11,884 nucleotides of DNA, taken from the NCBI GenBank assembly GCA_001192655.1, contig BBVC01000031.1:1-11884 (forward strand). The letters are read 5' to 3'. The notes under the pieces were generated by a model, which was not told the DNA's origin, ran no database searches, and was given only the letters and a program-made list of their open reading frames with translations. The stretch is from Caedimonas varicaedens (GTDB lineage: Bacteria > Pseudomonadota > Alphaproteobacteria > Caedimonadales > Caedimonadaceae). Below are positions 772 through 11,873 of the stretch, piece after piece; the stretch's first letter is position 1, and every line of letters starts with the position of its first letter. The position numbers and the translations under genes were made by a program.

Positions 772-2688
772 TCAATGAATCTGACGCACTTCTTGCTCTA
801 GAGATACAAGGCGTTGTGTCATTTCCTGAACGGCTAAAATGGTGTAACACAAAAGCGTATTGTAATTGACACCTAAAGAGGGGATATGATCGGGCAATGT
901 GTTTTGAGATGCATCCAGTGGTTTGTATTGATTGGTAGCATTGTCAAAAAGTGTCAGCACGTCTTCGGCAATCACACCCACTTGAAGCTCATTCATTTTT
1001 CTTTGCTTGCGGGCTTTCTTTTTGGGTGAATCAGATTTCAAAATGTCATACTTCAAGCCGTAAGAATAAATATTAAGACGAGTAAGTCTATCTAAATAAT
1101 CTTTATGTTTCTTTTTTCGAACGCTATGCTTGTTCTCTTTAGAACAAGGAACAAATTGTCCAGACCCATTAATGTAGGCAACGTAGCTGGTCATACTGCC
1201 ATTGTCTTCATCGGTAAAGATGAAGCCTAAAGTGTTCATGGGATTGATGAACTGCATGAAATCACCGTTCATGACCAGAGAAGATGTTTGTCCAAGGGCG
1301 TTTGATTCAAGGATCGTAGAATACGAAGAATTATAGACATTGGCTGCCCGTAAGTCCAAATAGTTGCTATAGGGACGAATATAACATTGATATCCGCCTT
1401 CATAAAAAGTTGTTTTGGCACTATTGCTCGCAATATCCATACGTTTTACTGAACCCGTTCCAAACTTTAGAGTAGCTGTATTAGCGGCCCACATATAAGC
1501 TTCGTTCGTGCTGGAATTAAACCCAAACTCTGCGCCATTTGATCCATTATATTGGATGAGAAACCCTGTAGAAATTGCACCTAGATTCGTATTATTTATA
1601 ACGATGTTATGCGAAGAACTATTTGTTGTCACGCGGATGGGGTCACCATCAACATTGGTAAAAGATAAAGGATTTTGCACATTTATTGAGACTTGGTTAT
1701 ACGCCGCCAAATTGTTGGCTTGGAGAGTTCCTGTTGTGGCACTGATCTTGCCAGAAGTTGTCAGGTCAAAGGTTTGAAGTGTCATATTGCTATCAATATT
1801 GAGATGATTGATATAAGGAACACTCCATTGACCGTCTCCGCGCAAAAAATAAGAGGAATTTGAAGGATAGCCATTCAGTCTTGAGATATTGAGCTTTCCT
1901 GTGGTTCCTGTATTGATATTTAGACTGGTGACAACACTGCCATTGCTGGCAGATGTTATACGTCCATAAGCATCCACTGTTGCATTGAGATTGGTATAGC
2001 TACCCGGCAAAACACCCGTGCCAGCTAAAGTAATCGTCCCGCTTGACGTAATTGTGCCACCTCTCAATCCTGTGCCTGCAGTAATACTGGTCACTGTGCC
2101 ACCTGTAGGATTGGACGCATTAATCGGAACCCAAGCTGATCCCGTATACATCTCAACAGTGCTTAGCGTAGAATTTGCTCGCATCATGCCAAAAACAGCC
2201 GTAGATGGTCTTTGTGCCGTTGTACCTATCGGTAAGATCATAGACGCTGTCCCAGGAAAGACAGGATTAGAAGCAAAAATTGTTTGAATGGGAGAATCTG
2301 TGAAACCAGACCCGCCAATATCTCCGCTTAAAGTGATGGGAATAGAAGACCTTGCATCAAAATCAACAGGCACATTAAAACGAAGACGAGAATTTTCTTC
2401 CGAGTAGTTGAAAATAGGCAAGTTCGAGACAGGCTCATACCCAAATCTCTCCAGCATAAAATCTCCAAAAATAGAGCTTGGTTTCGTGACCTGCTTGAAC
2501 CGATAACCGATAAAGGAATGGTTCAAAAAATCATAAGAACTAACTTCGTCCGTCAAACTCGTAGGCATAAACTGCGTCAGAGATTGAAGCGCACCATGAT
2601 TGTTCTCGGGGGAGAAAATCAACTTTTGTGTATCGCCCAATATTTTGAGATCAGGATTTATTCCACTCACGACTATCGTTGTTGCCAT
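772..2688 (-). CDS. tail-fibre protein with C-terminal intramolecular chaperone (Peptidase_S74-like) domain
   Basis: 638-aa ORF with GGAG 4 nt upstream of the ATG (ACGGAGATACATG). N-terminal ILGDTQKLIFSP and NPVFPGTASMILPIGTTAQRPSTAVFGMMR...VEMYTGSAW module shared with the two upstream genes. G/T/S-rich shaft repeats (GGTVTSITAGTGLRGGTITSSGTITLAGTGV, VDAYGRITSASNG, FLRGDGQWSVP) are typical of phage fibres. The last ~120 aa (CSKENKHSV...LNIYSYGLKYD...QVGVIAEDV...LGVNYNTLLCYTILAVQEMTQRLVSLEQEV) fit the endosialidase/tail-fibre chaperone domain pattern. Confidence 0.9.
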   Translation of the reverse strand: MATTIVVSGINPDLKILGDTQKLIFSPENNHGALQSLTQFMPTSLTDEVSSYDFLNHSFIGYRFKQVTKPSSIFGDFMLERFGYEPVSNLPIFNYSEENSRLRFNVPVDFDARSSIPITLSGDIGGSGFTDSPIQTIFASNPVFPGTASMILPIGTTAQRPSTAVFGMMRANSTLSTVEMYTGSAWVPINASNPTGGTVTSITAGTGLRGGTITSSGTITLAGTGVLPGSYTNLNATVDAYGRITSASNGSVVTSLNINTGTTGKLNISRLNGYPSNSSYFLRGDGQWSVPYINHLNIDSNMTLQTFDLTTSGKISATTGTLQANNLAAYNQVSINVQNPLSFTNVDGDPIRVTTNSSSHNIVINNTNLGAISTGFLIQYNGSNGAEFGFNSSTNEAYMWAANTATLKFGTGSVKRMDIASNSAKTTFYEGGYQCYIRPYSNYLDLRAANVYNSSYSTILESNALGQTSSLVMNGDFMQFINPMNTLGFIFTDEDNGSMTSYVAYINGSGQFVPCSKENKHSVRKKKHKDYLDRLTRLNIYSYGLKYDILKSDSPKKKARKQRKMNELQVGVIAEDVLTLFDNATNQYKPLDASQNTLPDHIPSLGVNYNTLLCYTILAVQEMTQRLVSLEQEVRQIH

Positions 2689-3498: not shown

Positions 3499-5940
3499 TT
3501 AGTGAGTTGTGTAACGAATCATTCCGACCTTGGGCTCTAAAATTGCGTCTCGTTCGGCTTGACTTCCTCCTGGAATCATAACATATTTTGTCCCTGGGAT
3601 CGTAGGATTTTCAGCTAAAGAAATCTTTTTTTGTGTTGAATCGTCAAAATCGTCTTCAATCACGATTTGATGGTCTGTTCCAACGCTTTTAACGCCTATT
3701 TTTTTTGACCCTAATGCGTCACTCCGAAAATAAGCGTCCTCAGATTGAGAATAGAAATACACATGCTTATCTTGGAAAGAAGGAATGCTATGTGTTTCAG
3801 CAAGAGCAATCACCGCCTTATCTCCTTGTCCTGTATTCTTGATATGAAGTGAATATTGCGGATTATTGTGACCGATAGCCACGTCAGGATAATAAACGTC
3901 ATTATCGTGATCCGCTCCACCAAGAACGATAGAATTGGAAGACTCAACCTTGGCATACGCGCCAATAGCAATGGCATTGACAAGCGTTCCTGAATCTTGC
4001 CCGCCCGTGTCCGCTTGGTATCCCAAGCCAATACAAAAATCTCCTCCCTTTCCCACCAAAGGCACATTTGATCCTGTGACCGAAGAAAGCGCACTGTCTC
4101 CAATGGCAATATTTCCTCTTCCTGTGCTATTGCTTCCCAAAGCATCAACACCGATGGCAAGATTCGGATGTTGTGTGAGCCACGAATGAGAAGTCGTAAA
4201 ATTTAAAGAAGCTCTGTCTCCTATAGCAATGTGCCTGGATTCAGCCGTCAAAGGATTGGTCGAGTCTGCATTCAGGTAAAAAAGTGTGCGATAGCCAATG
4301 GCAATATTGGAACTGCCACTTCTGGTCATTCTCGCGGCAGAATATCCAATGAAAACATTAGGCGATCCCAGTGGCTTTGCCGCAAAAGGCGCGTAATTAG
4401 CTCCAGCATAAGCACCGATGGCGACAGAGCCATCTGTAACTGTTTGAAATCTTTCAAGAGAATTCCCTTGTAAAGCGCAATAGCCAATCGCCACAGAACC
4501 GTCAATATATCCAGACAAAGGAATCCCAAGGGTATCAATGTTTGCAGGATACTGAAGGGCATTTGCGCCAATCGCAACGTTATGCTCCCCTTTGAACATG
4601 TTCTCAAGTGTACTTTGTCCAATCGCTACATGATTCCCACCAGGAGAAAGCATGGACCAAATTCCAGGACCAACACCAGATCGAGAAAGAGCATTTTGTC
4701 CTATGGCAACAGAGTTTTTGACGAAACCACAATATTGCAAAGCTTGGTGTCCCAAGCTCACATTGTAATCTCCTGACGAAAATTCTTGAGACGAAAAACC
4801 AACCGCCACATTGTAACGCGCCGCACTCACTCCCACAGCGTTACCGCAATTCTTCAAAGCGTTATAACCAACCGCCACATTCTCAATAGGATTAGCATGC
4901 GAATCAGATTCATTTGTAGGTGAGGAAAGCACGTTGAGGCCAATAGCAACATTTCGTGAGGCGCTACCTCCATCCGCAAACGTTCCACACTGTGTGCCGA
5001 TATAAAAATTGTCACGATCGCCAAATGTGTCGGTGATATAGGTCGGCTTTGCTTCTCCATACATCTTTTTCCAGCCGTCATTATATCCGCCCTCAAAGTA
5101 ATTCGTGTCGCTATTGTAGCGAAACATGCCAACGACAGGCTGTTCAGGCGTAGGATCGGGTCTTTGATCGTCTCCTCCCATAGGAATCGTGATGGAAATA
5201 TTGCCGGGGAAAACCGCATTATCCTGAAACGTGGTCTCAATCTTTTTAATCTTTTTGTCAGGATGTTCAGGATCAGGAATTACTTCAATTACCTTGCCTG
5301 AAACCGCTCCTATGATACTTTGACCAATGTTTTCAAAAATCACCACTTCCGCTATTTCCAAGTCTGCAAGCGTCAGGAAATCAATGCCAGGAATGGCAAT
5401 CTCTATCTTGCCAAAAGGCAGATTTTCAGGATGAAGAGGATCAGGTAATTGAAGAGAAAGTTTTAGAATGTTGGGCGTCAGGGCAATATTATAAAGCTCG
5501 TTCAAAGTTTGAGCATGTGGCAACTTCTTATCGCCATATTGACCTAAAGCCACGAATGGCTCACCGCCATAAGCATAATCCTCATTAGGTTGAGCATAGG
5601 CAAAGGTTGTGTAGTGTTGATCATCAGGCACGTCAGGATTGGCAACAGCAAGTTTCGTTAAAACGGGATAAGGTAATGCTGGAGGCGTTGCGGGCGTTGG
5701 AACAACAGTATTCAAATCAAAAGGCATCGGTCTTGAAAGAATGGTTTGATCTTCCTGAACCTGTGGAATGCCTAGCCAAATATGAGAACTCTGTAAATCT
5801 GGCAAATTATCTTGTAAAATAGTGGGTGAAAAAAAGGAATGGTTCTGATCGTCACCCAGAAGAACATGACTAAATGGAATAATGAGCTTCCCGCTCACAG
5901 GTGACATAAAAGGATCGGTATAGCCTGAAAGATAGTTCAT
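3499..5940 (-). CDS. large tail-fibre/adhesin-like protein with YadA-head-like beta-roll repeats
   Basis: 813-aa ORF. Long module at the N-terminus (VLLGDDQNHSFFSP at aa 26-39; NAVFPGNISITIPMGGDDQRPDPTPEQPVVGMFRYNSDTNYFEGGYNDGW at aa 241-290). About 16 irregularly spaced N-[VI]-A-[IV]-G-x-x-[AS]-L repeats over aa 329-690, resembling trimeric-autotransporter head (Hep_Hag) repeats. A second, short module forms the extreme C-terminus (GTDHQIVIEDD...NPTIPGTKYVMIPGGSQAERDAILEPKVGMIRYTTH-stop). No signal peptide or membrane anchor. Confidence 0.9.
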   Translation of the reverse strand: MNYLSGYTDPFMSPVSGKLIIPFSHVLLGDDQNHSFFSPTILQDNLPDLQSSHIWLGIPQVQEDQTILSRPMPFDLNTVVPTPATPPALPYPVLTKLAVANPDVPDDQHYTTFAYAQPNEDYAYGGEPFVALGQYGDKKLPHAQTLNELYNIALTPNILKLSLQLPDPLHPENLPFGKIEIAIPGIDFLTLADLEIAEVVIFENIGQSIIGAVSGKVIEVIPDPEHPDKKIKKIETTFQDNAVFPGNISITIPMGGDDQRPDPTPEQPVVGMFRYNSDTNYFEGGYNDGWKKMYGEAKPTYITDTFGDRDNFYIGTQCGTFADGGSASRNVAIGLNVLSSPTNESDSHANPIENVAVGYNALKNCGNAVGVSAARYNVAVGFSSQEFSSGDYNVSLGHQALQYCGFVKNSVAIGQNALSRSGVGPGIWSMLSPGGNHVAIGQSTLENMFKGEHNVAIGANALQYPANIDTLGIPLSGYIDGSVAIGYCALQGNSLERFQTVTDGSVAIGAYAGANYAPFAAKPLGSPNVFIGYSAARMTRSGSSNIAIGYRTLFYLNADSTNPLTAESRHIAIGDRASLNFTTSHSWLTQHPNLAIGVDALGSNSTGRGNIAIGDSALSSVTGSNVPLVGKGGDFCIGLGYQADTGGQDSGTLVNAIAIGAYAKVESSNSIVLGGADHDNDVYYPDVAIGHNNPQYSLHIKNTGQGDKAVIALAETHSIPSFQDKHVYFYSQSEDAYFRSDALGSKKIGVKSVGTDHQIVIEDDFDDSTQKKISLAENPTIPGTKYVMIPGGSQAERDAILEPKVGMIRYTTH

Positions 5941-7093: not shown

Positions 7094-7378
7094 TTATTGG
7101 TCTTTATTGTAAGCAATAATTTTATCCGTCAGCACTTCAAGGTAATCTATATGACAGATTCTCCCCATAAAAAGAAGTAATATCATTTCTATAATCAATA
7201 AAGAAAGAGAAGACCAGTCTTTTAAATGGGGAAAGATTAATAAATCAATAAAAAACAATGATAATAAAAAAAAGAAAAACAGAGTTTGGAGAAATTTAAT
7301 CCACACTCCATAGAGCAACTCCTTCAATGCGCTGCTATAATTTCTTAACGTAGACTCTTTTCTAAATTTGTTCATCAA
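7094..7378 (-). CDS. small two-TM membrane protein; candidate toxin partner (PanT-like) of the upstream Panacea gene
   Basis: Two hydrophobic helices (WIKFLQTLFFFFLLSLFFIDLLIF and LSLLIIEMILLLFMGRI) with polar, charged ends. The track start at 7378 is actually TTG; the first ATG is at 7375. It overlaps the 3' end of the 153-aa gene by 14-17 nt, suggesting translational coupling. Confidence 0.6.
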   Translation of the reverse strand: MMNKFRKESTLRNYSSALKELLYGVWIKFLQTLFFFFLLSLFFIDLLIFPHLKDWSSLSLLIIEMILLLFMGRICHIDYLEVLTDKIIAYNKDQ

Positions 7379-7823
7379 TAAAAAAATCTTTATATTCTTG
7401 AAGTATATCGCAATTGTTTATTTCAGCATGATATAAAGATCGGCGATAAGTCTTTTCCCAAGCACCATCCGCAAGATGTGTAAGAGCCACAAGATTATTT
7501 GTGCTGTAAGGGCGATATTTTCTGTAAACTTTTTCAATCAAGATAGACTCTTGCCCAGCGATAGGATCATCATTCGAAATTGTTTTAGTCCCATAAAATA
7601 CATTTAAAACAGGACGATTGGAAAAAATATTCGCCTTTTGATAAACCTCGGGATTTACAGGCCCATATTGCCAAGCTTCAAACGGCTCTTCTATTAAATA
7701 ATCATCGTTTTTACCGAGATGAAACATATGACAAAGATACATGAGTTTTTGCAAGCGTAAATTGCTTATGCTCCAATAACTTAATGAGCATAATTTCTTC
7801 GCCGCTTGAAATGCTGTAATCAT
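7362..7823 (-). CDS. Panacea (DUF4065) domain protein, PanA/SocA/GepA-type antitoxin
   Basis: SNLRLQKLMYLCHMFHLGKNDDYLIEEPFEAWQYGPVNPEVY matches the DUF4065 signature (LQKLLY...G.pL..e.FEAW.yGPV.p.vY). Its size (153 aa) and its position upstream of, and overlapping, a small gene fit the PanAT arrangement. Confidence 0.85.
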   Translation of the reverse strand: MITAFQAAKKLCSLSYWSISNLRLQKLMYLCHMFHLGKNDDYLIEEPFEAWQYGPVNPEVYQKANIFSNRPVLNVFYGTKTISNDDPIAGQESILIEKVYRKYRPYSTNNLVALTHLADGAWEKTYRRSLYHAEINNCDILQEYKDFFIDEQI

Positions 7824-8262: not shown

Positions 8263-9438
8263 ATGATGCAACGAGTAATTTTGACACAATCTATGATCGA
8301 AAAAGCGAAGCCAAAGGCGCGTATTTTTTCTTTGAAAGATGCGAAAGTCCCAGGGCTTGAGTTTGTTACCAATCCACGAGGAACACAGTCTTGGTTTGTG
8401 AGAGCGTTTAAACAAAAAATACTTCTCGGAAGATATCCGTTTATGAGTCTAGAAGATGCCCGAAAAATGGCTCTTCAGGTATATGTTGATCTTCAAAAGG
8501 GCGTTGTTCCTCTGGTTAAGAAAAAAGAAGAAAAAAACAAAAATATTACAGTTAATCAACTGGTTGAAGAGTTTTTCCAATTTAGATCATCTGGCACTCA
8601 TGCCTTAGAAGAATCGACAATGAACGTCTATAAGAAAGCTTGGGTTGCCTTAGGTTCTGAAACCATTGGAAGCTTTCAAATCTCAGAATTAACAGACGTT
8701 ACGATTAATCAAGTTTGTCTGCCATTAATGGCAAAATATTCTCGAGTGAAGTGCTTACAGAATCTCATACATGTAGCGTTCCAATATGGCTTCAAAATGG
8801 GCTACCCTGTTGCCGTTTTGAATTCAGATAATTGGCTGAAAGGAAAGGGCGAAGGCAAAGAAAGATACTTTTATTCTGCTGACGTTCAGAAACTTGAAAC
8901 GCAAACTGATTTTGGGCTTCAAAAGGATTCCACTGATTCGTCAATTTTACATATTCTTATGTACACAGGTTGTCGAGTTACTGAGATTTTAGAGCTTCAA
9001 TGGAATGATATTTCTTTAGAAAACGGCTATTTCAAGCTTCGTAAAACAAAGACTAAAAAGCAACGAGTTGTTCCTATTTCTGGTGCGTTGCGTGAAATTT
9101 TTCTGAGATTACAAACCACTTCATCTACGGGATACGTTTTCAAATCCCTGAGAGATGCCAATGCTCCCTATAATTATTTTACGCTGATTCATTTTTGGCG
9201 TCTCATTATGAAGCAGGCTGGTTTTAATACAGATGGTGAAAAATTGACCATCCACAGCTTACGCCATACGTTTGTGACGGTTGGTAATCGGATCAAGGTT
9301 TCTCCCTTTACGTTGCAAGATTTAGTCGGTCATTCCCGTGGCCGCTCTGTCACGGCTGGATATATTCATCCCAATCTAGCGGAGCTTGCAGAAGCCCAGC
9401 AATCCATCATTTCAGCCATTCAGAGCGGGAGCTACTAA
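8263..9438 (+). CDS. int: tyrosine recombinase / phage integrase, P4-type with DUF4102 arm-binding N-terminus
   Basis: A perfect SD (TAAGGAGG) precedes ATGATG. N-terminus LKDAKVPGLEFVTNPRGTQSWFVRAF...LGRYPFMSLEDARKMA fits the DUF4102 pattern. Catalytic set present: R in YTGCRVTE, K in KLRKTKTKKQRVVPI, HSLRHT (H-x-x-R), GH in LVGHS, Y in TAGYIH. Confidence 0.95.
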   Translation: MMQRVILTQSMIEKAKPKARIFSLKDAKVPGLEFVTNPRGTQSWFVRAFKQKILLGRYPFMSLEDARKMALQVYVDLQKGVVPLVKKKEEKNKNITVNQLVEEFFQFRSSGTHALEESTMNVYKKAWVALGSETIGSFQISELTDVTINQVCLPLMAKYSRVKCLQNLIHVAFQYGFKMGYPVAVLNSDNWLKGKGEGKERYFYSADVQKLETQTDFGLQKDSTDSSILHILMYTGCRVTEILELQWNDISLENGYFKLRKTKTKKQRVVPISGALREIFLRLQTTSSTGYVFKSLRDANAPYNYFTLIHFWRLIMKQAGFNTDGEKLTIHSLRHTFVTVGNRIKVSPFTLQDLVGHSRGRSVTAGYIHPNLAELAEAQQSIISAIQSGSY

Positions 9439-11873
9439 TGATTCTGCCTGAAATCCGCTGGAGCTATTTTGAACACATTAGAGATAATAAGCCTACGCCT
9501 TATAAGACGGACTGGGCTTTGTTCTCCAGCAAATTCAGTCAGCATCAAACGGCTGTAGAAAAGCATACAGTGCCTGCTTTTTCCATGAACATCTATAAAG
9601 AGAAGACCACACGGAGCAATGAATCGGTTCATAGCATGTCAGGTGTTGTCCTTGATTTTGATGGGAAGAGCAAGGAAGCGGTGACACTTAAGAAAGCGGC
9701 TTCTGCCTTAAATGGTTATAGCTATGTGGGATACACGACTTTCTCTCATTCTGAAGAAGCTCCTCGATACCGCCTTGTGATTCCTTTTTATGAAGCTATA
9801 TCACCTGAAGATTATCGTGGTCGTTTCTTTCCTGTGTTGAAGGAATACCTGAAGCAAAAGCTTGGTTCTAACTTGGAAGAGCTGGACGAAGGATGCCCAA
9901 TTCCTTCCAAGATTTACGATATTCCTTGTGTTCGGGAAGGTATGACACCTGAATCGATTGTTAAAACAGGTGGCTTTTTACATCCTGAATTATTTATCAC
10001 GAAATACCATGTACAGCAGGCACTTCTTAACGTTTCTGCGGATTGTGGGTATCACGACTGGATTCAAGTTGGGATGGCGATTCATGCGGGATTGGGCGTT
10101 TCTGAAGGGTTCGAGCTATGGAACGAATGGTCGTCCACAGGAAGCAAATATGCAGGAGCGCGTGACCTCGCCCAATACTGGAAAAACTTCAAGGAAGACA
10201 AGGGTATTACGCTGGGAACGCTGTTCCATAAGGCAGATTATCACCCTGGGGAAACTTTAATTTCTCTTCATTCCGTAGTGACGGGCGTTGATTCCTCTCT
10301 GTCCGTTTCCGATCAAATCTTGCAGTTTTTAAAGGAAGTGGGTCAGCCTTGTCTTCCAAGAGAAATTGCTTTTGGGATTGGGAAGAAAACAGAGAAAGAG
10401 CAAAGCAACGTTCGGGTGGTTATTAAAAGGCTTTATGATCGCGGTGATCTTGCTCGTAATAGCACCCAGAACACTTATGAACTTTCTTTCACTAAGCGTT
10501 CAGAAGACCAAAAAACAGGTCAGCGTTACATCCAAGACGATCAAAAATCGGATAATGAGGGTGTAACGTTACATGAAAATAGGGGTGTAACACCTGTAAC
10601 GATACATGATTTTGACTCAAAAAATAGTCAAATGGGTGTAACGGAAGGCAAAACTGGTGTAACGGCAAAGCTCAATATGTGGTCAAATTTCCGCGAATAT
10701 GGAAAATTTAATATTTTAGATGTGTCTCATTTCCCGATTCTCGCAAGTATTTATTCTTTTTTTACTTCCAACTGCAAACCTTTCCTTCCCCACCTTGCGT
10801 TAGGTGCCACGATTAATTGTGCAGGTCATATGATGCGTCCGATTGGAATATGTCGCGGAAAGAGGACAAACTTTTACACACTTCTTATATGTCGCACAGG
10901 TGGTGGAAAAGAAACAGTCGCGCGAAACATTTTTAAATATATGGACTACCAAAAGCTGGGAGCTTACACGGCATCTAACTTTGTGAGTGTTCAGGGGTTT
11001 GAAAAGAAGATCACCCAAACCAATCCTCTTCTTATGATAACTGACGAAGCCGCGCAATGGTTCGGAGCTTTTAGCGGTCGGAACACGAGTGAACATTTTA
11101 AGAAGCTCAAGACAGCGTTGAAGCTCGTGTACTCGGGGGATCGGTATACGTGCCAGAATTCCAAGAGCGAAAATGGGGCTGTGATTGAAGAGCCTTTCTT
11201 AAATTCCTGTTTTTTAGGAACGCCTGCGATATTTCAGAATATTCGGGAAGACGATATTACGGATGGTCTCTTGGGTCGGATGCTGGTGTTCCATGATGTG
11301 AACAATAGCTGGGGTATTAGTGCGTACGATTTATCCAAAGCAGAAAGCTTTGTTCCTCCTGAACTCCTGAATATTAAAGCTCCGTCTAGTCTTTTTGAGC
11401 TTTATGAAAAGAACAATCGGTTTGACTTGCTTCACTTTTACGAAGGGCTTGTGAACAGTATGCCCCTTCCTGATACGTTGCCTGACAATTATGTGAAATT
11501 CTTGTTGGCGCGTATTCCTGAGAATTTCAACAAGCTTCTTCTTTTGACCATGAACGAGAAGGGAGAAGTGACGGACACAGGCGCACAGTGGGCGGCTTCT
11601 GTAGCGATTTATTGCTATGATACAGCTTGCGCCTTGCTGGAAGAGCATTTTGGTAAAACGTTCTTCTCGGACGCGCACCAGAAAATGTTTGATCTTATCA
11701 AATCAGCCAAAACCATTTCAAAAAGTCAGCTTCGCGCTTCTCATGCCATGAAGCGGTTAGACAAGCGTGTCTTTGAGGAAGCCTTGGACGCTCTGGCAGA
11801 AATGGGTGTCGTTGAGGTTATTCAACAGAATCCACCGAGTGGAGGTCGTCCAACAATCACCATTAATTTATAG
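9438..11873 (+). CDS. replicase: primase-like N-domain + PriCT-2 + winged-helix + DUF3987 (helicase-like) protein
   Basis: The ATG overlaps the int stop (TAATG), with GGGAG upstream. AEP-like motifs (VVLDFDG, TTFSHS, RYRLVIPF). PriCT-2-like DWIQVGMAIHAGLGVSEGFELWNEWSSTGSKY...YWKNF. Probable wHTH (ILQFLKEVGQPCLPREIAFGIGK...VIKRLYDRGDL). DUF3987-like C-half (TLLICRTGGGKETVARNIF, LLMITDEAAQWFG) and a terminal wHTH-like tail (MGVVEVIQQNPPSGGRPTITINL). Confidence 0.9.
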   Translation: MILPEIRWSYFEHIRDNKPTPYKTDWALFSSKFSQHQTAVEKHTVPAFSMNIYKEKTTRSNESVHSMSGVVLDFDGKSKEAVTLKKAASALNGYSYVGYTTFSHSEEAPRYRLVIPFYEAISPEDYRGRFFPVLKEYLKQKLGSNLEELDEGCPIPSKIYDIPCVREGMTPESIVKTGGFLHPELFITKYHVQQALLNVSADCGYHDWIQVGMAIHAGLGVSEGFELWNEWSSTGSKYAGARDLAQYWKNFKEDKGITLGTLFHKADYHPGETLISLHSVVTGVDSSLSVSDQILQFLKEVGQPCLPREIAFGIGKKTEKEQSNVRVVIKRLYDRGDLARNSTQNTYELSFTKRSEDQKTGQRYIQDDQKSDNEGVTLHENRGVTPVTIHDFDSKNSQMGVTEGKTGVTAKLNMWSNFREYGKFNILDVSHFPILASIYSFFTSNCKPFLPHLALGATINCAGHMMRPIGICRGKRTNFYTLLICRTGGGKETVARNIFKYMDYQKLGAYTASNFVSVQGFEKKITQTNPLLMITDEAAQWFGAFSGRNTSEHFKKLKTALKLVYSGDRYTCQNSKSENGAVIEEPFLNSCFLGTPAIFQNIREDDITDGLLGRMLVFHDVNNSWGISAYDLSKAESFVPPELLNIKAPSSLFELYEKNNRFDLLHFYEGLVNSMPLPDTLPDNYVKFLLARIPENFNKLLLLTMNEKGEVTDTGAQWAASVAIYCYDTACALLEEHFGKTFFSDAHQKMFDLIKSAKTISKSQLRASHAMKRLDKRVFEEALDALAEMGVVEVIQQNPPSGGRPTITINL
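10524..10665 (+). repeat. iteron cluster, putative origin of replication embedded in the replicase linker
   Basis: TGTAAC cores in direct orientation start at 10562, 10586, 10595, 10637 and 10658, mostly as GGTGTAACG. Inverted copies lie at 10524-10530 (CGTTACA) and 10568-10573, the latter making TGTAACGTTACA (10562-10573) a perfect palindrome. An AT-rich 7-bp inverted repeat TTTGACT/AGTCAAA (10611-10617 / 10626-10632) sits between the iteron groups. Confidence 0.55.

What the first reader, a model, noticed from the sequence alone, without database searches (positions are those of the whole stretch)
10524..10715. Origin-like iteron array written into the coding sequence of the replicase linker
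Within about 140 bp of the 811-aa primase-helicase gene there are five direct copies of (G)GTGTAAC(G) and two inverted copies. One pair forms the perfect 12-bp palindrome TGTAACGTTACA. The arrays flank an AT-rich 7-bp inverted repeat (TTTGACT-8 nt-AGTCAAA) and are followed by another AT-rich stretch (about 10690-10715). Core starts at 10562, 10595, 10637 and 10658 are spaced 33, 42 and 21 bp apart, close to integral helical turns. In the protein this region is a low-complexity linker between the PriCT-2/wHTH half and the DUF3987 half. Each iteron is read as Gly-Val-Thr with the same codons every time: GGT in 4 of 4, GTA in 5 of 5 and ACG in 4 of 5. That argues for a DNA-level rather than a protein-level constraint. 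The layout parallels lambda ori inside gene O, and the iteron origins bound by P4 alpha and SaPI Rep proteins. I do not recognise this iteron or an intragenic placement of this kind in a DUF3987-type replicase.
Basis: partly seen in the sequence, partly recalled or inferred. Interest (0 to 1): 0.72.

Follow-up and report, generated by a model that had tools for sequence, protein, structure and literature searches.

The report
Replication origin inside its replicase gene
A cluster of short repeated DNA words inside a prophage primase-helicase gene is very probably the element's replication origin: related genes keep the words in both orientations and in different reading frames, and change every copy together with the DNA-reading helix encoded just upstream.

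Summary
Seven of the window's 13 TGTAAC copies lie in 10525-10663: five direct and two inverted, including the palindrome TGTAACGTTACA. The window is a Caedimonas varicaedens prophage contig.

Eight related replicase genes from metagenomes carry the same array at the same place, with five different core words: TGTAACG, TGCCACG, TGATACG, TGTCGCA and TGTCACA. Each locus uses only its own word, in direct and inverted copies alike.

Between two near-identical replicases, the 31 constant core positions are all identical and the 14 variable ones all differ. In two loci the word is read in three reading frames, so it is not a peptide repeat. Spacings of 21, 22, 33, 42 and 54 bp keep the sites on one helical face.

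The array follows a confidently predicted winged-helix domain. That domain's recognition helix is the protein's hot spot of type-specific substitutions. Helix, wing and sites form a ~270-bp mosaic cassette (10392-10664).

The ~100 bp downstream (10680-10785) hold the gene's most AT-rich stretch and its peak of synonymous-site conservation.

Best reading: an iteron origin written into the initiator's linker, as in lambda O and pSK41 Rep, but in an AEP-PriCT_2-DUF3987-type primase-helicase. Binding and initiation were not tested.

The parts
9438..11873 (+). Replicase gene (811 aa). Domain order: N-terminal primase-like region, PriCT_2, internal winged helix, iteron-encoding linker, DUF3987-like helicase half, C-terminal winged-helix-like end.
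   Evidence: ORF. PriCT_2 5.9e-20 at residues 194-266. PHROG DNA-primase families. DUF3987 25.2 bits, below the cut-off. Named Cva_00858 of Caedimonas varicaedens.
10305..10484 (+). Internal winged-helix domain (residues about 290-349). It is the proposed origin-binding domain.
   Evidence: AlphaFold2 pLDDT 92.3 with H1-H2-H3 plus a beta-hairpin wing. Foldseek matches to winged-helix DNA binders at TM about 0.73. Sub-threshold BlaI/Penicillinase_R similarity.
10401..10427 (+). N-terminal half of recognition helix H3 (residues 322-330, QSNVRVVIK). These are the proposed specificity residues.
   Evidence: Five of 9 positions are fixed differences between TGTAACG-type and TGCCACG-type proteins, against 17 of 737 outside this helix and the linker (P = 1.6e-6). 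It is the top 10-residue window of the whole protein.
10392..10664 (+). Specificity cassette: recognition helix, wing and the whole iteron array.
   Evidence: L010 and L011 are 91-98% identical in DNA along most of the gene but 60-73% in this block.
10524..10530 (-). Upstream inverted iteron (CGTTACA).
   Evidence: The aligned position reads CGTTACA in L010 and L001, CGTGGCA in L011 and CGCGGCA in L002.
10562..10573 (.). Palindromic iteron pair TGTAACGTTACA.
   Evidence: L011 has TGCCACGTGGCA at the same position.
10586..10591 (+). Extra, off-phase copy (TGTAACA). It is specific to this window.
   Evidence: Absent at this position in L010, L002 and L011.
10595..10606 (.). Second pair. The left half TGTAACG is intact; the right half is decayed (CGATACA against CGTTACA).
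   Evidence: L010 keeps the perfect palindrome here.
10611..10632 (.). Spacer with a T-tract, an A-tract and the 7-bp inverted repeat TTTGACT/AGTCAAA.
   Evidence: Only the T-tract/A-tract pattern is kept in orthologues.
10637..10643 (+). Direct iteron (GGTGTAACGGAAG).
10658..10664 (+). Direct iteron (GGTGTAACGGCAA), 21 bp after the previous one.
10680..10785 (.). AT-rich stretch under synonymous-site constraint. It is the proposed DNA-unwinding and helicase-entry region.
   Evidence: AT-richest 40-nt windows of the gene (75% AT). Codon identity at amino-acid-conserved columns is 0.86 against 0.60 elsewhere (0 of 20000 permutations). With four independent lineages it is 0.74 against 0.49 (11 of 20000).

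Best explanation
The array is the replication origin of a temperate-phage-like element, written into the linker-coding part of its own replicase gene.

**Shown by comparison of sequences**
- The 7-11-bp words (consensus GGTG-NN-R-C-R-GA; here GGTGTAACGGA) are under selection as DNA, in both orientations.
- They sit on one helical face.
- They are followed by the gene's most AT-rich and most synonymously constrained ~100 bp.

**Inferred**
- The winged-helix domain encoded immediately upstream binds the words through the N-terminal half of its recognition helix (residues 322-330), which reads the variable central bases.
- Several replicase subunits are thereby gathered on the five to seven sites. 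The palindromic pairs could orient subunits head to head.
- The AT-rich flank melts, the DUF3987-type helicase half loads itself, and the N-terminal primase domain primes.
- Because the helix and its sites lie within ~270 bp, they are inherited and exchanged as one specificity cassette.
For: 1. **Clustering far beyond chance**.
2. **Nine loci, five core words.** Each linker holds 5-7 copies of its own word, except L002, whose cores are degenerate (TGCC-N-CG) so that only 2 match the exact 6-mer. None holds another type's word apart from two single chance hits.
3. **Concerted switch.** Between L010 and L011 the constant core positions are 31/31 identical and the variable dinucleotide positions 0/14. 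Eleven of the 13 type-diagnostic linker positions fall in those 14 positions (P = 6.7e-14). Palindrome halves change in a complementary way: TGTAACGTTACA becomes TGCCACGTGGCA, which is V/L to A/W in the protein.
4. **Frame independence.** The word is read in three reading frames in L017 and L018.
5. **Beyond the peptide.** Recoding the same peptide with the gene's own codon usage gives at most about 2.5 copies of any 6-mer, against 5-7 observed (P <= 2/2000 in six of seven loci).
6. **Spacing.** The values are 21, 22, 33, 42 and 54 bp, all within 1.5 bp of whole helical turns. Where the frame is not kept the spacing is 21-22 bp.
7. **AT-rich, synonymously constrained flank**.
8. **Winged-helix fold** at pLDDT 92, matching DNA-binding winged helices.
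9. **Recognition helix as hot spot** of type-specific substitutions in the whole protein.
10. **Mosaic block** 10392-10664 between otherwise 91-98% identical genes.
11. **Co-occurrence.** Remote homologues at 36% identity or less lack both the winged helix and the repeats.
12. **Precedents for the layout:** lambda O (PMC7466680) and pSK41 Rep (PMC5703833). DUF3987 proteins are replicative-type helicases often fused to AEP primases (PMC4889955; PMC11724360).
Against: - No experiment was done. Binding, unwinding and initiation at this site are all inferred.
- The link between helix and iteron rests mainly on one contrast (TGTAACG type against TGCCACG type). For the more diverged types, substitutions are spread over the whole domain and give no enrichment.
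- Genes flanking the replicase also differ between L010 and L011/L002, so another binder is not excluded.
- The AT-rich flank also encodes a highly conserved peptide, and a second, weaker synonymous peak lies at 11118-11262.
- The whole family comprises only nine loci, all but one from metagenomes. Two of them are truncated, and L012 repeats the linker sequence of L001.
- The full-length structure model was poor (pLDDT 44.6).
Confidence: 0.7

Rival explanations
1. The sites are bound by the replicase's winged helix but are not the origin itself. They would serve autoregulation (a roadblock to transcription of the gene's own helicase half), copy-number control by handcuffing, or incompatibility, with the origin lying elsewhere.
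For: Mixed palindromic and direct copies recall plasmid initiators that use inverted repeats as operators and direct repeats as iterons (my own knowledge of the RepA/pi/RepE systems). The selection shown proves binding sites, not initiation.
Against: The array lies 1.1 kb inside the ORF with no promoter-like site nearby. It adjoins the AT-richest, synonymously constrained stretch of the gene, which an operator would not need. No second array of the word exists elsewhere in the window or in the 16.6-kb locus L001.
Confidence: 0.12
2. The words are sites for a different protein: integrase arm-type sites, a repressor, or a terminase (pac-like site).
For: In this window an integrase with an arm-binding domain is encoded directly upstream. 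Flanking genes also diverge between loci of different iteron type.
Against: In L003, L010 and L011 the gene upstream of the replicase is not an integrase, yet the array is present. The array always sits at the same place in the replicase. The type-specific substitutions of the replicase concentrate in the adjoining recognition helix.
Confidence: 0.08
3. It is a neutral or protein-level tandem repeat in a disordered linker (a GVT-type peptide), homogenised by unequal crossing-over or gene conversion.
For: Units in L001 show a recent 42-bp duplication. Identical codons within one locus can come from shared descent.
Against: Inverted copies covary with direct copies. The word is kept across three reading frames. 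Only the 7-11-bp core is homogeneous, while the spacers differ in sequence and length. The base before the core is conserved although the amino acid varies.
Confidence: 0.03
4. It is an mRNA-level element: hairpins formed by the palindromes regulate translation or stability.
For: Palindromes and inverted repeats are present.
Against: There is no Rfam match. Direct copies, which form no stems, are conserved as strictly as inverted ones. What is conserved is the word and its helical spacing, not pairing partners.
Confidence: 0.03

Closest known systems
Lambdoid phage ori inside gene O (lambda, Stx phages)
   Same: Iterons plus an AT-rich tract lie in the middle of the initiator gene. They encode a linker after the DNA-binding domain, and extra iterons add residues to the protein (PMC7466680).
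   Different: O is not a helicase or primase and recruits host DnaB through P. Its iterons are longer. There is no Pfam or sequence relation to this protein.
RepA_N plasmid initiators (pSK41 Rep)
   Same: [quoted passage not shown] The DNA of the origin encodes a dispensable linker (PMC5703833).
   Different: It is a small initiator without enzymatic domains, on a plasmid of Firmicutes, with an unrelated fold family.
PY54 / N15 RepA
   Same: It is a multidomain primase-helicase whose gene alone suffices for circular plasmid replication (PMC10612081).
   Different: It has a DnaG-type primase fused to an SF2 helicase (PMC4889955). That its origin lies in the 3' part of repA is from my memory, not checked here.
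SaPI Rep and SCCmec Cch2 self-loading helicases; P4 alpha
   Same: A helicase (with or without a primase) carries its own origin-binding domain and recognises short iterons (PMC7581432). That P4 alpha binds iterons through a C-terminal winged helix is my own knowledge.
   Different: Their origins lie downstream of or away from the gene, in non-coding DNA. The binding domain is C-terminal there and internal here.
PriCT-DUF3987 helicase AgaPH and AEP-DUF3987 fusions
   Same: The same enzyme class: DUF3987 is assigned to SF6 helicases, carries a C-terminal wHTH and is often fused to AEP primases (PMC4889955). AgaPH unwinds 5' to 3' (PMC11724360).
   Different: No origin or internal winged helix is described for them. 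Remote homologues of this protein lack both.

Membership tests
Iteron-type replication origin | Three or more clustered copies of a short word | tested here: met
   Seven copies in 139 bp, with 0 of 200 shuffles reaching the window total. Five to seven copies in the orthologues apart from L002, whose cores are degenerate.
Iteron-type replication origin | Spacing that places the sites on one helical face | tested here: met
   Spacings of 21, 22, 33, 42 and 54 bp in nine loci. One window-specific extra copy is off-phase.
Iteron-type replication origin | Adjacent AT-rich region | tested here: met
   The AT-richest 40-nt windows of the gene start at 10682-10696. The region is also the synonymous-constraint peak.
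Iteron-type replication origin | Cognate initiator with a sequence-specific DNA-binding domain that covaries with the sites | tested here: met
   Winged helix at pLDDT 92. Type-specific substitutions concentrate in its recognition helix (P = 1.6e-6). Mosaic cassette. Physical binding was not tested.
Iteron-type replication origin | Replication initiates at the site and depends on the initiator | not testable with these tools
   Needs a replication assay or marker-frequency mapping.
Lambda O / Phage_rep_O initiators | Protein homology to O | tested here: not met
   No such Pfam or PHROG hit. Only the layout is shared.
PriCT_2 (PF08707) | Score above the Pfam gathering threshold | tested here: met
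   71.9 bits against a cut-off of 22, residues 194-266.
DUF3987 (PF13148) helicases | Score above the Pfam gathering threshold | tested here: inconclusive
   25.2 bits against a cut-off of 27 for the C-terminal half. Relatives P0004, P0005 and P0162 carry precomputed PF13148 hits.
Archaeo-eukaryotic primase (AEP) domain | Homology to primase families and the catalytic DxD motif | tested here: inconclusive
   PHROG 'DNA primase' families at residues 8-190 (down to 1e-15). VLDFDG at residues 70-75. No Pfam AEP model hit, and the structure model is poor there.
BlaI/MecI (Penicillinase_R) winged helix | Score above the Pfam gathering threshold | tested here: not met
   20.3 bits against a cut-off of 22.6. 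PDB 1sd4 at E = 0.007. The fold search returns generic winged helices.

The most novel reading that the evidence does not exclude
A single ORF is a complete replicon: primase, helicase, origin-binding domain and the origin itself. Inside it, a ~270-bp cassette (recognition helix, wing and cognate iterons) is swapped between otherwise near-identical replicases to create new replication specificities. The five to seven half-sites would template assembly of the hexameric helicase. This would be the first origin defined for a DUF3987-type replicase. It would also be a candidate vector backbone for Holosporales endosymbionts, which I believe lack genetic tools.
Probability: 0.45. Interest if true: 0.7.

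Novelty: new variant of a known kind. Interest (0 to 1): 0.6.

Why it matters
- **A first candidate origin for this enzyme class.** DUF3987-type primase-helicases are common in phages and integrative elements, but I found no origin described for them in the searchable literature.
- **A specific, testable case.** The candidate comes with five natural specificity variants. It also predicts which residues (322-330) read which bases.
- **Why origins sit inside initiator genes.** Tight linkage lets the recognition helix and its sites recombine as one unit.
- **A practical lead.** The host lineage is made of obligate endosymbionts of protists. A one-gene replicon would be a useful starting point for building tools.

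Tried and rejected
- **Searches for more relatives.** The genome contigs protein scan and the DNA-pattern scan found nothing. The viral-contig scans gave only remote relatives or nothing. Cultured phages gave no close match by megablast or tblastn. A profile search with the winged-helix alignment returned one new protein.
- **Full-length structure prediction.** It was too poor to use (pLDDT 44.6).
- **Remote homologues.** L004 (29% identity) and L016 have no comparable array in or near the gene, so the feature is clade-specific and not general to DUF3987 replicases.
- **Other element types.** No Rfam family and no promoter-like or terminator-like site in 10300-10950.
- **Excluding other binders.** Comparing the genes flanking L010, L011 and L002 was inconclusive, because the flanks also diverge.
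- **Extra copy in L011 and L002.** An extra TGCCACG-type copy 196 bp downstream is ordinary coding sequence; L010 and the window differ there without any pattern.
- **The 7-bp inverted repeat.**
- **Copies outside the array.** Four further TGTAACG copies in the window are not significantly more than the ~1.5 expected.
- **C-terminal winged-helix-like end.** It shows only 3 of 67 type-specific differences, so I rejected it as the specificity determinant.
Full report
**Context**

The window is an 11.9-kb contig of Caedimonas varicaedens, a Holosporales endosymbiont of Paramecium. The 811-aa ORF at 9438-11873 is the protein Cva_00858. It follows an integrase whose stop codon overlaps its start by one base (TAATG). 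Tailspike-like and fibre-like genes lie on the other strand. A 71%-identical relative sits in a 16.9-kb metagenome contig with portal and terminase genes. The element is therefore a temperate-phage-like prophage.

The protein has PHROG 'DNA primase' matches at residues 8-190 and PriCT_2 at 194-266. Its C-terminal half scores just below the DUF3987 threshold (25.2 bits against 27), while relatives carry that Pfam hit.

**The observation**

- TGTAAC occurs 13 times in the window against 4.5 expected, and seven copies lie in 10525-10663. GTGTAAC occurs 7 times against 0.66 expected, four of them in the array.
- Five copies are direct (10562, 10586, 10595, 10637, 10658) and two are inverted (10525-10530, 10568-10573).
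- The palindrome TGTAACGTTACA lies at 10562-10573.
- The codon counts are right. GTA, used 5/5 in the repeats, is the rarest Val codon elsewhere in the gene at 10%.
- Codon identity within one locus could still reflect recent duplication, so the real test is comparison with orthologues.

**Orthologues**

Protein and contig searches gave eight further loci, all from metagenomes: L001 (with the same linker sequence in L012), L010, L002, L011, L003, L013, L017 and L018. All carry an array at the same place, between a conserved 'NTY/GSY' motif and 'WSNF'.

The core word differs between loci:

| Type | Core word | Loci |
|---|---|---|
| A | TGTAACG | window, L001, L010 |
| B | TGCCACG | L011; degenerate TGCC-N-CG in L002 |
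| C | TGATACG | L003, L013 |
| D | TGTCGCA | L017 |
| E | TGTCACA | L018 |

Aligned, the site reads GGTG-NN-R-C-R-GA. A cross-count shows that each linker holds 5-7 copies of its own 6-mer, direct plus inverted; L002, with its degenerate cores, has only 2 exact matches. No linker holds another type's word, apart from two single chance hits.

**DNA-level rather than peptide-level constraint**

1. *Inverted copies track direct copies.* The aligned upstream site reads CGTTACA in A-type loci, CGTGGCA in L011 and CGCGGCA in L002. C-type, D-type and E-type loci each carry inverted copies of their own word.
2. *A clean switch between L010 (A) and L011 (B).* They share the layout inverted-37-palindrome-33-palindrome-42-direct-21-direct. 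The 31 constant core positions are all identical and the 14 variable-dinucleotide positions all differ. Eleven of the 13 type-diagnostic positions of the 201-bp linker fall in those 14 positions (Fisher P = 6.7e-14). In the palindromes TGTAACGTTACA becomes TGCCACGTGGCA. This is complementary on the DNA but an unrelated V/L to A/W change in the protein.
3. *Conservation within a type.* Window and L010 are 96% identical in the cores against 61% in the rest of the linker (P = 1.3e-6).
4. *The base before the core.* It is always a third-position T, while that codon encodes G, H, S, R, D, T, A or P.
5. *Three reading frames.* In L017 and L018 the copies are spaced 22, 22, 21 and 21 bp, so the same word is read in three frames (C-R, M-S-H and V-A in L017). 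A peptide repeat cannot explain this.
6. *Recoding null.* Recoding each peptide with the gene's own codon usage gives a maximum of about 2.5 copies of any 6-mer, against 5-7 observed (P <= 2/2000 in six of seven loci).
7. *Only the core is homogeneous.* Spacers differ in sequence and length, which argues against simple homogenisation of whole repeat units.

**Origin-like features**

- *Spacing.* The values are 33/42/21 (window, L010, L002, L011), 21/21/21 (L001), 21/42/21 (L003), 21/54/21 (L013) and 22/22/21/21 (L017, L018). All lie within 1.5 bp of whole helical turns. The extra copy at 10586 is off-phase and specific to this window.
- *AT-rich flank.* Just after the last iteron lie the AT-richest 40-nt windows of the gene (starts 10682-10696; 75% AT against 56%).
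- *Synonymous constraint.* This region is also the gene's peak of synonymous conservation. Codon identity at amino-acid-conserved columns is 0.86 in 10680-10785 against 0.60 elsewhere (0 of 20000 permutations), and the best contiguous blocks all overlap it. With four independent lineages the peak remains, at 0.74-0.80 against 0.49 (11 of 20000). A weaker second peak appears at 11118-11262.
- *Other element types.* No promoter-like or terminator-like site and no Rfam family lie here.

**The likely binder**

- *Fold.* Residues about 290-349, directly upstream of the array, fold as a winged helix (H1, H2, H3 and a beta-hairpin) at pLDDT 92.3. The model matches DNA-binding winged helices (Zalpha/ZBP1, IclR and MarR types; TM about 0.73). 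Similarity to BlaI is below threshold.
- *Type-specific substitutions.* Over 788 aligned columns only 33 positions are fixed differences between A-type and B-type proteins. Five of them fall in the nine residues 322-330, the N-terminal half of H3. This is the top 10-residue window of the protein (5/9 against 17/737 outside helix and linker; P = 1.6e-6). The helicase half has 2 of 329 and the C-terminal winged-helix-like end 3 of 67.
- *Limit of this evidence.* For the more diverged C and D types, substitutions are spread over the whole domain, so those comparisons are uninformative.
- *Co-occurrence.* Remote homologues at 36% identity or less have an acidic linker with neither the winged helix nor repeats.

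**A mosaic cassette**

L010 (A) and L011/L002 (B) are 94% identical in the primase-PriCT_2 part, 90-98% in the helicase part and 92-95% in the C-terminal end. They are only 71-72% identical in the winged helix and 45-47% in the linker.

At the DNA level, L010 and L011 are 91-98% identical along most of the gene, dropping to 60-73% in the block equivalent to window 10392-10664. That block runs from the start of H3 to the last iteron. The recognition helix and its presumed sites therefore behave as one exchangeable unit.

**Mechanism**

- *Shown:* the words are DNA elements under selection in both orientations, phased, next to a constrained AT-rich stretch, and linked to a variable recognition helix.
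- *Inferred:* the winged helix binds them, several replicase subunits assemble on the array, the AT-rich flank opens, the helicase half loads and the primase domain primes.

I put 0.7 on this reading. The main rival, at 0.12, keeps the binding but assigns it to autoregulation or copy control. Sites for another protein (0.08), a neutral or peptide repeat (0.03) and an mRNA element (0.03) fit the data poorly.

**Comparison with known systems**

- *Same layout, known.* Lambda and Stx phages have iterons and an AT-rich tract in the middle of gene O, and extra iterons lengthen the protein (PMC7466680). pSK41 Rep binds four Rep boxes in the centre of its own gene, and that DNA encodes a dispensable linker (PMC5703833). 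The repA gene of PY54/N15, a DnaG-primase/SF2-helicase fusion, suffices for circular replication (PMC10612081; PMC4889955).
- *Origins outside the gene.* SaPI Rep and SCCmec Cch2 bind iterons just downstream of their genes (PMC7581432).
- *The enzyme class.* DUF3987 proteins are regarded as SF6 replicative helicases, often fused to AEP primases (PMC4889955), and one is a 5'-3' helicase (PMC11724360). I found no origin described for them.
- *Verdict.* This is a new variant of a known kind, not a new principle.

**Limits**

The family is small: nine loci and five site types. Two loci are truncated and none is from a cultured phage. No binding or replication experiment exists. The comparison of flanking genes could not exclude another binder.

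Noticed in passing
window 10392-10664; L010 2639-2911 against L011: L010 and L011 are 91-98% identical in DNA along most of the replicase gene but only 60-73% in this ~270-bp block, which covers the recognition helix, the wing and the iterons. The block looks like a swapped specificity cassette.
   Followed up: yes
window ~11337-11470 (L010 3584-3720): A second divergent block between L010 and L011 lies inside the helicase half. It is not linked to iteron type, because L010 and L002 are 98% identical across the helicase. Its meaning is unknown.
   Followed up: partly
proteins P0012 and P0163 (metagenome relatives): These relatives keep the winged helix but have an internal deletion. It removes the whole iteron linker, the AT-rich stretch and roughly the first 45 residues of the helicase half. 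Both end out of frame and look like decayed copies that lost the putative origin.
   Followed up: partly
L017 348-469 and L018 3-95: These two loci have the same array layout and differ by one base in every copy (TGTCGCA against TGTCACA, with the inverted copies changing accordingly). The L017 ORF stops right after WSNFRQFGNFK, so that copy may be a remnant.
   Followed up: partly
window 9436-9440: The integrase stop and the replicase start overlap by one base (TAATG), which suggests translational coupling. In L003, L010 and L011 the upstream gene is not an integrase, so the replicase moves between different element backbones.
   Followed up: partly
window 7362-7823 (-): This ORF has a SocA/Panacea antitoxin domain (Pfam 1.8e-17), and a 94-aa ORF of unknown function lies just downstream (7094-7378). 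They may form a toxin-antitoxin pair on the prophage.
   Followed up: no
window 772-2688 (-) and 3499-5940 (-): Two large ORFs are fibre-like and tailspike-like. One has a Peptidase_S74 intramolecular-chaperone end; the other matches PHROG tail-spike families. They are virion genes of the prophage.
   Followed up: no
window 176, 2977, 3510, 4812: Four further TGTAACG copies lie outside the array, against about 1.5 expected. The excess is not significant. The copy at 176 has the extended form GTGTAACGGA.
   Followed up: partly
window 11118-11262: A second, weaker peak of synonymous-site conservation lies in the helicase half (0.73-0.74 against a mean of 0.49). It is unexplained.
   Followed up: no
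window 10683-10715; L001, L003, L013 equivalents: TGGTCAAATTTCCG is identical in seven of the loci, down to 45% protein identity (L017 and L018 differ at two synonymous positions). TCAAATTT-N13-AAATTTGA forms an inverted repeat in L001, L003 and L013, with 7 of 8 bases matching in the window. It may belong to the unwinding region or may just reflect the SNF...KFD peptide.
   Followed up: partly
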